From NCBI RefSeq assembly GCF_016026235.1, contig NZ_CP065614.1: 64,000 nt of DNA; one strand, 5' to 3'. Made by a program: the position numbers. The stretch comes from Escherichia coli. GTDB lineage: Bacteria > Pseudomonadota > Gammaproteobacteria > Enterobacterales > Enterobacteriaceae. Of this stretch, positions 3,001 to 6,000 are shown in pieces; position 1 is the stretch's first letter; each line of letters begins with the position of its first letter.

Positions 3001-6000
3001 GAACTTGCGTTTCTGCTTACAGTGCAGCCTCAGCTCCTTACGAAGACGTGCCAGTCTGTCACGACCGACGATAATTCCGTTATCTGCCAGCTCCGTCTGG
3101 AGCCGCCGGGTTCCATATGTTTCGCGAGTGCGGATATGTGCCACCTTAATCTCCAGTTTTAGCCGCTCATCACTTTGTTTTCTGTCTGAGGGGGCATGCT
3201 GTACCCGGTCGTAATAACCGCTCCTGGATACACCAGGTACCCGACACATCGCTTCAACAGGGAATTGTTGTCGCCATTGTTCGACTAACGCGTATTTTTC
3301 AGCGACTCCTGGGCAAAATACGCTGTTGCTTTTTTAATATATCTCGCTCAAGTCGTGCTTCATTTAAAGCCTTACGCAGTTGCATAACTTCAGATTCCAG
3401 CTCAGCCACTGTGCGGGAGCCTGGTGTATTGAGCCCTTTTCTTGCGGCGGTAACCCATTGTCCTAAAGTGCCTTCAGGAACAGATAATCGGGAAGCGCCT
3501 TCACTGATCGAAAGCTGATTTTCAGGAACCGTTTTGACGGCTTCGGCTTTAAACTCCGTAGAGTAACGTTGGGTTTTTCTGCTCATTATTGGCTCCTTCT
3601 GATGCCATTCTATTTCAGGAAGGAGTGTCCGTTAAACTCAGGCTACCTCAGACTCAGACTTTATAAAACAAGGTATTAGGTGCCACAACTGACTGAACAA
3701 AACCAAAACGCTCATAAAATGCTCTGGCGTCATCATCAATTGCATGTACCATAACAGCCTTAATGCCAACCTGATCAGCCAGATTGACAACCCGGTGAAT
3801 GGCATCACTTAGTAGCCATTTACCGAAACCATGCCCTTGGGTACAAACATCAACAGCCAGACGCCCTAACAGAACAACAGGGACAGGATTGGGCATGTTA
3901 TGCCGCAAACTGCGACCAAGCTCGGCATGAGTGACGGAACCAGTAGCTAATGAGTAGTATCCCACAACACGTAAAGTATCCTCCAAGCAAATAACGAACG
4001 TGCGAGAAGCATTGAGCATCTGGTTTTTCATAGCCCGACCACGTAACCAGTTACTTAGCACCTCATTTCCACAGTCAAATGGCTGAAGTATATGCTCATC
4101 CGTCAACAATGCTGGCGCGGTGACATTTATTTCCATTCAGGCTTTACCGCCATCAGACGTTCACGCCCTTCTGCATTCTGCACAGGAGCTTCCAGTTGCG
4201 TAATAAACGAATCATAACGTTCGTTATCCAGCACAAATAAACGTTGATCCAGGATAATGTTTTTAGCTTCCTGGTACGCCAGTTCCATGATGAAATCGGT
4301 ACGGTTCTTATTGACCAAGCTCGCAGCATAATCAATAACGGCTCGTTCCTCATCAGTTGCCCGGATGTTAATCTGATGTTCTCGCGGTGTTTTACGGACG
4401 CTTGCAGCTGTAGACATAAAAACCTCCATTGGTAACAATTTGCTATGCAATTAATGTTATCGCAAATGGTAACAGAACGCTATACAGAATCACTTACGGG
4501 AAAAGCGATCCCCTGATAAAAACAATGGCAGAGACCTGAACATTGTGACGATGATCTGTGTCGGCGCACAAATCATGTCTGATTACGGCCGTTTAATGTG
4601 ATTTTGATAATGAAATGCCTCGAGTAGGCAGCCTGACGGCTGCGGCTTGTCATGGTCTGCAATTACCGTTATAAAAACAGGCAATGTCATTGTCTTTCAG
4701 GTGGTTATATGGCCCGTTCAGCTAAACCCCGTAAACGTAAACCCGCCTCTCAAAGAAGCAAACTTCCCCGCTATGTCGTGAAGCTTCACGAAGATGATTT
4801 TTTTGACGAAGAAGACGCAGAAGTTCTGCGCTTTGATAGTTTTGACGATGCCGTTGAATGCTGCGCAGACCTGAATATTCCGTTCTTTGTGGATGCGGGA
4901 AACAAAAAGCTGGTCTTCTGGTTTGTACGTGTTGATGACGAAGGGTATCCGGAAATCGCCCGCTGCACGGAGCGGGAATTTGCGACCATTCTTTCCGGTA
5001 TCAGCGCCGGCGGTATGTACTGCCCGGAGTGTGGCACGGTTCACTGGCCGGACGGAGTCGCCCCGCCCTTCTGATGCTTCCCCGTTTTGCCGATATCTTT
5101 CAGCAGGGAAACCGCTGGCTTAACTGGCTGGAGAAGCAGCCGGAAGGGGCAGTACGTCCGGTGGTGATTGAGTCGGTGACCAAAATCATGGCGTGCGGGA
5201 CCACACTGATGGGGTATACACAGTGGTGCTGTTCATCACCGGACTGTTGCCATACAAAAAAGGTCTGCTTCCGGTGTAAAAGCCGCTCCTGCCCGCACTG
5301 CGGGGTGAAGGCTGGCGCACAGTGGATACAGTATCTGCTGAGCCTGGTCCCCGACTGCCCATGGCAGCATATTGTGTTCACGTTACCCTGCCAGTACTGG
5401 TCCCTGGTGTTCCACAACCGGTGGTTGCTGGCAGAGATTAGCCGCATTGCAGCGGATGTGATACTGGAAATCTGCCATCAGGCAGATGTGGAGCCGGGGA
5501 TATTCACGGTGATCCACACATGGGGGCGTGACCAGCAGTGGCATCCGCATATCCATTTATCGACAACTGCCGGTGGTGTGACGTCGGGCCACACCTGGAA
5601 AAATCTTCATTTTTACGCCCGTAAGGTGATGAGCATGTGGCGCTACCGGATAACACGGTTACTGTCACGGAAATACCCTGACCTGGTGATGCCAGATGCG
5701 CTGGCAGCAGAAGGAAGCAGTAAACGGGAATGGAATCGCTTCCTGGACACGCATTACCGCCGTGGCTGGAATGTCAACGTATCCCGGGTGATGGATAATG
5801 CCACCCATGTGGCGGTGTACTTTGGCTCTTACCTGAAAAAGCCACCGGTGCCGGTGAGTCGTCTGGAGCATTATGCCGGTCAGGATGAAATCGGACTGCG
5901 TTACAACAGTCACCGAACAAAACGGGAAGAATACCTGTTGATGAGTGGAGATGAGTTCATGGAAAGGTTCTCCTGGCATGTGGCGGATAAGGGGTTCCGT

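What the first reader, a model, noticed from the sequence alone, without database searches (positions are those of the whole stretch)
4542..4617. Toxin-antitoxin operon and copB share a conserved upstream box
The ~75-bp segment upstream of the DUF1778-antitoxin/GNAT-toxin operon (4542-4617) is nearly the same as the segment upstream of copB (15125-15200), including the partially palindromic core gtgtcggcgcacaaatca. Either the TA module was recruited next to a duplicated piece of the replicon control region, or both operons share an operator. That would couple addiction-module expression to replication control. The TA pair is a GNAT acetyltransferase toxin with a small antitoxin overlapping its start.
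Basis: partly seen in the sequence, partly recalled or inferred. Interest (0 to 1): 0.45.

Follow-up and report, generated by a model that had tools for sequence, protein, structure and literature searches.

The report
Leftover copB promoter piece beside GmvAT
The shared ~90-bp box is real, but the evidence points to a leftover of an old event that put the GmvAT toxin-antitoxin cassette just upstream of the plasmid's copB replication-control gene and duplicated the local DNA, not a shared control switch.

Summary
The repeat is real: window 4529-4616(4620) matches 15112-15199 at 80% over 88 nt (BLAST E 9e-18 within the window). Both copies lie upstream of minus-strand operons. One is the DUF1778/GNAT pair, which is GmvAT of the Shigella/EIEC virulence plasmid pINV. 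The other is copB of the IncFII replicon.

The box is the conserved DNA upstream of copB, found in more than 5000 IncF plasmids. In all seven loci inspected it ends 62 nt before the copB ATG. A published TSS map puts the copB start at window 15083, so the box spans about -29 to -116. It holds only the -35 and upstream half of PcopB.

In 67 E. coli/E. albertii IncF plasmids the gmvAT cassette sits directly upstream of copB, flanked by a ~150-bp direct duplication that contains the box. In this window IS600 and an IS91-family element have isolated gmvAT with one copy. That copy is 93-94% identical to the boxes of those plasmids.

A shared operator is not supported. The box does not co-vary with CopB type, whereas the PrepA dyad does. 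Salmonella homologues lack the box but keep two repeats in the 112-nt leader. No TSS is mapped in either box. This is an ordinary insertion scar of low interest.

The parts
4529..4620 (-). TA-side copy of the box: a relic of the copB-upstream segment, holding the PcopB -35 and upstream DNA but no -10 or TSS. It is 93-94% identical to the copB-proximal boxes of L002, L004 and L006, and 80-83% identical to this plasmid's own copB box.
15112..15199 (-). copB-side copy of the box: the resident upstream half of the copB promoter region, about -29 to -116 from the TSS at 15083. It is 100% identical to the box of L003.
4553..4574 (.). Imperfect dyad GATTTGTG-N6-CACAGATC inside the TA-side box.
15136..15157 (.). 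The same imperfect dyad in the copB-side box, centred about -63 from the copB TSS. No binding factor is known.
4418..4528 (-). gmvAT leader, intrinsic to the cassette. It holds two ~19-nt direct repeats, TGTATAGCGTTCTGTTACC (4486-4468) and TGCATAGCAAATTGTTACC (4449-4431), a candidate -35 TAGCGT (4482-4477), a candidate -10 TAACAT (4459-4454) and SD GGAGG (4427-4423). It is the probable GmvA operator/promoter (inferred).
4127..4417 (-). gmvA, DUF1778/TacA-type antitoxin (96 aa).
3654..4136 (-). gmvT, GNAT acetyltransferase toxin (160 aa). It overlaps gmvA by 10 nt.
3299..3650 (-). Left end and orfA of an IS3-family element (the IS600-like end TGAGGTAGCCTGAGTTTAACGG is my recollection). It starts within ~7 nt of the gmvT stop, where homology to the intact cassette ends (3647). 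It removes the cassette tail and the downstream box.
4621..6261 (+). IS91-family element (small ORF 4700-5074, transposase 5029-6261). Its end abuts the distal end of the TA-side box; the junction is at 4617-4621.
15084..15117 (-). Core of PcopB: -35 TCGCTG (15117-15112, the last 6 nt of the box) and -10 TAGTAT/TATCCT (15097-15089). The most upstream mapped TSS lies at 15083. The -10 and TSS are absent from the TA-side copy.
14793..15050 (-). copB (repA2), repressor of PrepA.
14782..14798 (.). Perfect dyad ATGTGAT-GGG-ATCACAT next to the -35 (TTGCTA) of PrepA. It is the probable CopB operator (inferred) and co-varies with CopB type across loci.
14577..14666 (+). CopA antisense RNA.
13635..14504 (-). 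repA, the IncFII replication initiator.

Best explanation
The box is the conserved DNA just upstream of the core copB promoter of IncFII-type replicons. It runs from the terminator hairpin of the upstream hok locus down to, and including, the PcopB -35.

In an ancestral IncF plasmid a ~985-bp cassette was inserted right after that -35. The cassette consisted of a 112-nt leader, gmvA, gmvT and a short tail. About 150 bp of the target was duplicated, giving hok - box - gmvAT - box - copB. That arrangement survives in E. coli and E. albertii plasmids.

In the pINV lineage represented by this window, an IS3-family element (IS600-like) cut the cassette 7 nt after gmvT, and an IS91-family element abuts the distal end of the upstream box. 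The result is a 970-bp island (3647-4620) carrying gmvAT and one box copy. It lies about 10 kb from a resident replicon whose own box is a different allele.

Functionally, the copB-side copy is the upstream half of PcopB. The TA-side copy is a promoter fragment lacking a -10 and TSS and is most likely inert. gmvAT is probably expressed and autoregulated from its own leader repeats.

Shown: the repeat, the architecture in other plasmids, the IS boundaries, the copB TSS, and the lack of co-variation with CopB type. Inferred: the order of events, the inertness of the TA-side copy, and the identity of the GmvA operator and promoter.
For: - The repeat is real.
- The box occurs in at least 5000 IncF plasmids. 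In all seven loci inspected it ends 62 nt upstream of copB.
- In L004-L007 the order is hok - box - leader - gmvA - gmvT - tail - box - copB. The duplicated segment is 140-150 bp in L004 and L006, and shorter and more diverged (120-130 bp) in L005 and L007. The junctions are defined against an empty site, L002.
- 67 records carry this architecture in one piece.
- Of 186 records carrying the leader, 184 contain leader and box as one contiguous stretch.
- Window homology to the intact cassette is limited to 3647-4620. It is bounded by an IS3-family end and an IS91-family end.
- The TA-side box is 93-94% identical to the boxes of L002/L004/L006, but only 80-83% identical to the window's own copB box, which equals L003's box at 100%.
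- M90T TSS table: the most upstream copB TSS is 33 nt before the ATG. The box therefore carries only the -35 and upstream DNA, and no TSS lies inside either box.
- Salmonella homologues (74% identical) lack the box. They keep two TGTATAGCAATTTGTTACC repeats and a positionally conserved -10 candidate 35-36 nt before the ATG.
- CopB type and the PrepA dyad co-vary, and the box does not.
- CopB acts at PrepA, and copB is transcribed constitutively (PMC4344636; PMC12779154).
Against: - No promoter of gmvAT has been mapped. The M90T table lists no TSS anywhere upstream of gmvA, so a contribution of the box to gmvAT transcription is not excluded.
- In 184 of the 186 E. coli/Shigella-lineage records carrying the leader, leader and box are contiguous. 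There is therefore no natural experiment within that lineage showing the TA works without the box.
- The arms of the dyad are the most conserved positions of the box, which hints at an unknown constraint.
- The mechanism that made a 150-bp flanking duplication is unknown.
- Only four 'filled' loci and two 'empty' loci were examined base by base.
Confidence: 0.78

Rival explanations
1. Promoter capture. The duplicated box still contributes to gmvAT transcription, for example as a -35/UP-like upstream element of a hybrid promoter or through the weak internal TTGTGC-18-CACAAT match. The TA would then have a constitutive, PcopB-like input in addition to its autoregulated promoter. No shared repressor is involved.
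For: - In 184 of the 186 records carrying the leader, leader and box are contiguous.
- The box survived IS-mediated scrambling in pINV.
- A weak sigma-70 match, TTGTGC-18-CACAAT, lies inside both copies.
- gmvAT's real TSS is unknown.
Against: - The junction removed PcopB's -10 and TSS. No conserved replacement -10 exists at the right spacing in the five TA-side copies.
- The internal TTGTGC/CACAAT match is not conserved: CACAAC, CACAGT, TACAAC and GACAAC occur in other copies.
- It gives no TSS at the copB copy in M90T.
- Salmonella homologues have no box yet keep the leader repeats and a -10 candidate.
Confidence: 0.12
2. Shared operator or regulator site. A protein binds the conserved dyad in both copies and co-regulates copB and gmvAT, coupling addiction to replication control. 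The protein could be CopB, GmvA or a host factor.
For: - The imperfect dyad GATTTGTG-N6-CACAGATC is the best conserved part of the box. It is present in both copies, centred about -63 from the copB TSS, a position compatible with an upstream activator site.
- One ATCACAT half-site of the type-I PrepA dyad occurs in the box.
- A TA-replicon coupling of a different kind is known in R1 (Kis-Kid acting on copB mRNA, PMC4344636).
Against: - copB transcription is reported as constitutive, and CopB's target is PrepA.
- The PrepA dyad changes with CopB type, whereas the box is invariant across four CopB types.
- The GmvA-type repeats (TGTTACC motifs) are absent from the box.
- In the TA copy the dyad lies about 140 nt upstream of the gmvA ATG and about 90 nt upstream of the candidate -10, a different geometry from that at copB.
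- The dyad spacing does not fit CRP.
- The dyad is not statistically exceptional on its own.
Confidence: 0.07
3. Recombination or mobility site. The box, or its distal edge, is a preferred break-and-join site that mobilises modules (gmvAT, hok, IS91) into the copB-upstream region. The repeat would then be the footprint of a site-specific or hot-spot mechanism rather than of a one-off illegitimate event.
For: - Rearrangement end-points cluster within about 5 nt of the distal box end. These are the IS91-family junction at 4617-4621 and the hok presence/absence boundary at 15199/15200.
- The cassette is flanked by direct repeats.
Against: - The cassette carries no recombinase or transposase and no inverted repeats.
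- 150 bp is far longer than any transposition target duplication.
- The cassette's own junctions are at the proximal end of the box and upstream of the hairpin, not at the clustered distal end.
- Two or three coincident end-points are weak statistics.
Confidence: 0.03

Closest known systems
copB (repA2) promoter-upstream region of IncFII/RepFIIA replicons (R1, R100/NR1 type)
   Same: The copB-side box ends 62 nt upstream of copB, exactly as in the other IncF plasmids inspected. It is followed by copB, the PrepA dyad, CopA, tap and repA in the canonical order. The TSS and -10 lie just downstream of the box.
   Different: Nothing differs for the copB-side copy. The TA-side copy is only the upstream part (-35 and beyond), detached from any replicon.
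gmvAT cassette inserted directly upstream of copB in E. coli / E. albertii IncF plasmids (e.g. CP043249 p1RM15114, CP082358 pVCSW7, CP128589, CP051739)
   Same: The leader, gmvA, gmvT and upstream box are the same, at 91-94% identity over window 3647-4620.
   Different: In those plasmids the cassette keeps its tail and a second box copy, followed by copB, and hok lies upstream. In the window the tail, second copy and hok are gone, replaced by IS elements. The resident copB, with a different box allele, lies about 10.5 kb away, and gmvAT is now on its downstream side.
GmvAT of Shigella flexneri pINV and the GNAT/DUF1778 type II TA family (TacAT, AtaRT, KacAT)
   Same: The locus is essentially identical to that of pWR501: 100% over leader plus box and 99.7-99.9% to other Shigella pINV plasmids over 3600-4528. 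It has GNAT and TacA1 domains and a near-identical solved structure, 9ilr/9ils. GmvAT stabilises pINV, mainly at 21 C, in a Lon-dependent way (PMC6519299).
   Different: No difference in the genes. The papers read here do not describe the adjoining copB-type box. Antitoxin-bound repeats in the promoter are typical of this family (my knowledge of AtaRT, KacAT and TacAT, not tested here).
Kis-Kid (ParD/PemIK) coupling to the R1 basic replicon
   Same: It is a documented case in which a TA module influences IncFII replication control (PMC4344636).
   Different: That coupling is post-transcriptional. The Kid toxin lowers copB mRNA (PMC4344636), by cleavage at UUACU sites according to Pimentel et al. 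2005, cited there. It does not involve a shared DNA box or operator. Nothing comparable is shown for GmvAT.

Membership tests
GNAT/DUF1778 type II toxin-antitoxin systems (GmvAT, TacAT, AtaRT, KacAT) | The toxin has a GNAT acetyltransferase fold related to TacT, AtaT and KacT. | tested here: met
   Pfam Acetyltransf_10/7/1 match at 3e-08 to 5e-07. PDB sequence hits include 9ilr (3e-106), 7ak8 and 5fvj (both ~5e-44), 6ajn (1.7e-19) and 5zgn, deposited as KacT (1e-18). Only 5zgn is named in the output; the identities of the other entries are my recollection.
GNAT/DUF1778 type II toxin-antitoxin systems (GmvAT, TacAT, AtaRT, KacAT) | A DUF1778/TacA-type antitoxin is encoded immediately upstream in the same operon. 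| tested here: met
   Pfam TacA1 PF08681 matches at 3e-19. PDB hits include 9ilr_B, 7zg6 and KacA. The two ORFs overlap by 10 nt on the same strand.
GNAT/DUF1778 type II toxin-antitoxin systems (GmvAT, TacAT, AtaRT, KacAT) | Demonstrated toxicity, neutralisation and plasmid stabilisation. | not testable with these tools
   Taken from the literature on the essentially identical pINV locus (PMC6519299; leader and box 100% identical to pWR501).
IncFII (RepFIIA) replication control region | copB, CopA antisense RNA, tap and repA occur in order on one strand. | tested here: met
   CopB matches NF010256 at 5e-41. CopA matches RF00042 at 99.9 bits. repA and tap are annotated in near-identical records.
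IncFII (RepFIIA) replication control region | The box is part of the replicon, meaning it sits at a fixed distance upstream of copB in other IncF plasmids. | tested here: met
   This holds for the copB-side copy: the distance is 62 nt in all seven loci examined, and the box occurs in at least 5000 records. The TA-side copy is not attached to any replicon.
CopB operator | A dyad at the target promoter changes together with the CopB protein type. | tested here: not met
   The PrepA-adjacent dyad co-varies with four CopB types. The box sequence is the same for all of them. Its only similarity to the PrepA region is a 16/17 inverted match with E = 0.11, seen in one allele. Binding itself was not tested.
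Antitoxin (GmvA) operator | Repeats are conserved upstream of the antitoxin gene in distant homologues of the same TA. | tested here: not met
   The feature is met by the 112-nt leader: two TGTATAGC-N5-TGTTACC repeats are shared with Salmonella homologues. It is not met by the box, which is absent from those homologues (best BLAST E = 0.035 or worse) and lacks the motif.
Complete sigma-70 promoter (a duplicated PcopB) | A -35, a -10 and a mapped TSS are all present in the repeated segment. | tested here: not met
   The box ends with the -35 (TCGCTG/TCTCTG). The -10 (TAGTAT/TATCCT) and the TSS (15083) lie outside it and are absent from the TA-side copy. No TSS is listed within either box in M90T.
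Transposon/IS target-site duplication | A short (2-14 bp) direct repeat flanks an element that has terminal inverted repeats and a transposase. | tested here: not met
   The flanking repeat is 140-150 bp in L004 and L006. The cassette carries only gmvA and gmvT.
Structured RNA / known sRNA | A match to an Rfam family, or folding clearly better than shuffled sequence. | tested here: not met
   There is no Rfam hit better than E = 0.7 in 4380-4700 or 15000-15320. Fold z-scores range from -0.5 to -2.05.

The most novel reading that the evidence does not exclude
The conserved imperfect dyad GATTTGTG-N6-CACAGATC, centred about -63 from the copB TSS and invariant across all CopB types, is the binding site of an unidentified host or plasmid factor that modulates PcopB. 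Its retention upstream of gmvAT in 184 of the 186 plasmid records carrying the gmvA leader would put the addiction module under the same input. That would be a DNA-level link between IncF copy-number control and post-segregational killing.
Probability: 0.07. Interest if true: 0.5.

Novelty: new member of a known kind. Interest (0 to 1): 0.2.

Why it matters
The finding mainly removes a false lead. The repeat does not indicate a regulatory link between GmvAT and IncFII copy-number control.

It has modest value for plasmid evolution. It shows where gmvAT came from: a cassette inserted at the -35 of PcopB in IncF plasmids of E. coli and E. albertii, with a ~150-bp flanking duplication. It also shows that the pINV copy is an IS-bounded fragment from a different IncF lineage than the resident replicon.

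It further delimits the likely GmvA operator and promoter to the 112-nt leader. That is useful for anyone cloning gmvAT 'with its native promoter'.

Tried and rejected
- **Chance similarity.** Rejected: E = 9e-18 within the window.
- **CopB operator in the box.** I compared the PrepA region with both boxes and with the TA leader. The only hit was a 16/17 inverted match with E = 0.11, in one allele. I then tested co-variation across four CopB types, and the box does not co-vary. Rejected.
- **CRP-like site.** TGTG and CACA are 6 nt apart, not the 8 nt required. Rejected from the sequence and my knowledge of the CRP consensus.
- **Box as a complete promoter or hybrid promoter.** The consensus scan found nothing on the minus strand. 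My PWM scan gave only weak, non-conserved candidates in the box. The M90T TSS table has none there.
- **Structured RNA or sRNA.** Rfam at the gathering threshold and at E <= 1 gave nothing relevant. Fold z-scores are marginal.
- **Second replicon remnant, cassette tail or hok locus elsewhere in the window.** None found.
- **Published GmvA operator or promoter mapping, or R1 PcopB mapping.** The open-access papers I found give only 'constitutive promoter' and no coordinates.
- **Intrinsic terminator in the cassette tail of L006.** The simple scan found none. Hairpins seen by eye were not validated.
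Full report
**1. What the window is.**
The segment around the finding is 100% identical to Shigella flexneri pWR501 over the TA leader plus box. The wider 13.5 kb matches EIEC/Shigella pINV-type plasmids that still carry tra genes, such as CP011417 and CP091399, at 99.5-99.7%.

Reading the minus strand, the order is:
- traI, traX, finO, a nuclease gene and hha;
- box, copB (14793-15050), CopA/tap and repA (13635-14504);
- an IS5-family element, ospC2 and IS91-family elements;
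- box, gmvA (4127-4417) and gmvT (3654-4136);
- an IS3-family element.

**2. The observation.**
The repeat is real. Window 4529-4616 matches 15112-15199 over 88 nt at 80% identity. BLAST gives 82.9% over 76 nt with E = 9e-18 within the window, and the next best hit has E = 0.6.

Both copies lie upstream of minus-strand operons. One ends 112 nt before the gmvA ATG and the other 62 nt before the copB ATG.

The gene identifications hold:
- The antitoxin matches Pfam TacA1/DUF1778.
- The toxin matches GNAT domains and has a near-identical solved structure, 9ilr.
- The two ORFs overlap by 10 nt.
- CopB is identified by NCBIfam and CopA RNA by Rfam.

The TA pair is GmvAT, a characterised pINV maintenance system that is Lon-dependent and most effective at 21 C (PMC6519299).

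**3. What the box is at copB.**
The box occurs in at least 5000 IncF plasmid records. In all seven loci I inspected it ends 62 nt upstream of copB, whatever lies further upstream, whether hok, DUF2726/hha or gmvAT.

The published dRNA-seq TSS table for S. flexneri M90T pWR100 lists four copB TSSs on the minus strand, at 102580, 102566, 102552 and 102543. The copB ATG is at 102547, so the most upstream start is 33 nt before the ATG, which is window 15083.

The -10 (TAGTAT/TATCCT, 15097-15089) therefore lies in the copB-specific 62 nt. The -35 (TCGCTG, 15117-15112) is the last 6 nt of the box. The box thus spans about -29 to -116 of PcopB. No TSS is listed inside it.

**4. Where the second copy comes from.**
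A search with gmvAT found homologues at 91-95% identity in E. coli and E. albertii IncF plasmids. In four of them (L004-L007) the operon sits directly upstream of copB. The order is hok, box, 112-nt leader, gmvA, gmvT, tail, box, 62 nt, copB.

The duplicated segment is 140-150 bp in L004 and L006, and shorter and more diverged (120-130 bp) in L005 and L007. It runs from the GC-rich hairpin downstream of hok to the PcopB -35.

Alignment against an empty site (L002) fixes the junctions. The cassette starts right after ...TTCA(A/G)GTC(T/G)CTG and ends just before the hairpin.

Two counts show how tightly the pieces travel together. 67 plasmid records contain this whole architecture in one piece. 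Of the 186 records that contain the leader, 184 have it contiguous with the box.

In the window, homology to the intact cassette is confined to 3647-4620. On the gmvT side it stops 7 nt after the stop codon, at the end of an IS3-family element. I recall its terminal sequence as IS600-like, and an IS600-family transposase is annotated in a near-identical record. On the other side it stops at 4617-4621, at the end of an IS91-family element.

The TA-side box is 93-94% identical to the boxes of L002, L004 and L006. It is only 80-83% identical to the window's own copB box, which is 100% identical to L003's box. No cassette tail, hok locus or second replicon remnant exists elsewhere in the window.

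The simplest reading is that pINV acquired a gmvAT-bearing piece of another IncF lineage. IS-mediated rearrangement then trimmed it to a 970-bp island. This step is inferred.

**5. Does the box regulate gmvAT, or couple it to replication control?**
Five lines of evidence argue against it.

(b) Across the loci there are four CopB protein types. The dyad next to the PrepA -35 changes with them: ATGTGAT-GGG-ATCACAT in the window (14782-14798), and CGTAAATATTCACAT and others elsewhere. The box is the same for all types. L003 even has the window's exact box with a different CopB type.

(c) Salmonella homologues of the TA (74% identical) sit in unrelated contexts and have no box. They keep two direct repeats, TGTATAGCAATTTGTTACC, upstream of the antitoxin. 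The window has the matching repeats at 4486-4468 and 4449-4431. A -10 candidate (TAACAT in the window, TATAGT in Salmonella) sits 35-36 nt before the ATG in both lineages. The TA's own control region is therefore the leader.

(d) The TA-side copy lost PcopB's -10 and TSS at the junction. No conserved replacement exists at the right spacing.

(e) No TSS is listed in or near the TA-side box or leader on either strand. This also means the gmvAT promoter remains unmapped, which limits the argument.

**6. Residual oddities.**
The best conserved positions of the box are the arms of an imperfect dyad, GATTTGTG-N6-CACAGATC. It is centred about -63 from the copB TSS. It does not fit CRP spacing and matches no RNA family. 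A role as a binding site for an unknown factor cannot be excluded.

The 150-bp flanking duplication is too long for a transposition target duplication, and the cassette has no recombinase. Its origin is unexplained; staggered illegitimate recombination is one possibility.

Rearrangement end-points cluster at the distal edge of the box. These are the IS91-family junction and the hok presence/absence boundary.

**7. Comparison with what is known.**
The components are known: GmvAT, and the IncFII copB-copA-repA control region. The only documented TA-replicon coupling in this plasmid family, Kis-Kid acting on copB mRNA in R1, is post-transcriptional and unrelated to a DNA box (PMC4344636).

I found no description of the copB-type box beside gmvAT, or of the 'gmvAT directly upstream of copB' architecture, in the GmvAT papers I could read.

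The feature is an insertion/duplication scar of an ordinary kind in a mosaic plasmid.

**8. Verdict.**
- Best explanation: the TA-side box is a relic of an ancestral insertion of gmvAT at the PcopB -35, made with local duplication and later isolated by IS elements (confidence about 0.78).
- Interest is low (0.2).

Noticed in passing
window 14782-14798 (and the same position in L002-L007): A perfect dyad, ATGTGAT-GGG-ATCACAT, overlaps the copB stop codon next to the PrepA -35. Across loci it changes together with the CopB protein type (four types seen). L003 has the window's exact copB-upstream box but a different CopB type, so a recombination breakpoint lies inside copB.
   Followed up: partly
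window 4617-4621 and 15199-15200: Independent rearrangement end-points fall within about 5 nt of the distal end of the box. One is the IS91-family junction in the TA-side copy. The other is the hok-locus presence/absence boundary in the copB-side copy (compared with L002). This may be a hot spot or a coincidence.
   Followed up: partly
L004 4762-4901 / 5886-6024; L006 621-770 / 1717-1866: A 140-150-bp direct duplication flanks the ~985-bp gmvAT cassette in E. coli/E. albertii IncF plasmids. The cassette has no transposase or inverted repeats, and the mechanism of insertion is unexplained.
   Followed up: partly
window about 15235, + strand (M90T pWR100 position 102732): The M90T TSS table lists a 'novel' primary TSS pointing away from copB just beyond the distal end of the copB-side box. 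I saw no convincing -10 upstream of it.
   Followed up: no
window 431-2369 vs 8323-10258: About 1.9 kb is directly repeated at 90-97% identity. The second copy contains ospC2 (8439-9893), so the first looks like a diverged or truncated ospC paralogue region.
   Followed up: no
window 6448-8165, 11243-12729, 24726-26443 (inverted), 4621-6261: Several IS91-family copies (99-100% identical to each other) plus a more distant family member occupy most of the 10.5 kb between gmvAT and the replicon.
   Followed up: no
window 17342-17525, + strand: A strong Rfam match to AS-pc02 (antisense RNA described on IncFII plasmid pHK01; 182.8 bits) lies in the finO-copB backbone interval.
   Followed up: no
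window 15656-16102, + strand: A 148-aa ORF (15656-16102, + strand) reads like the C-terminal part of a serine recombinase/resolvase (judged by eye from the translation). It lies in the window's own copB-upstream interval, where L003 carries DUF2726 and hha.
   Followed up: no
window 14738-14754 vs 15164-15179: A 16/17 inverted match, GATTACTG(A)TCGTTTAA, links the PrepA -10/+1 region and the copB-side box. It includes the UUACU motif known as a Kid cleavage site in R1 mRNA. E = 0.11, it is present in only one box allele, and it is probably chance.
   Followed up: partly
window 4415-4429: RefSeq annotates the antitoxin from the ATG at 4429 (100 aa). The ATG at 4417 has a GGAGG Shine-Dalgarno sequence 5 nt upstream and is the more likely start (96 aa).
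   Followed up: no
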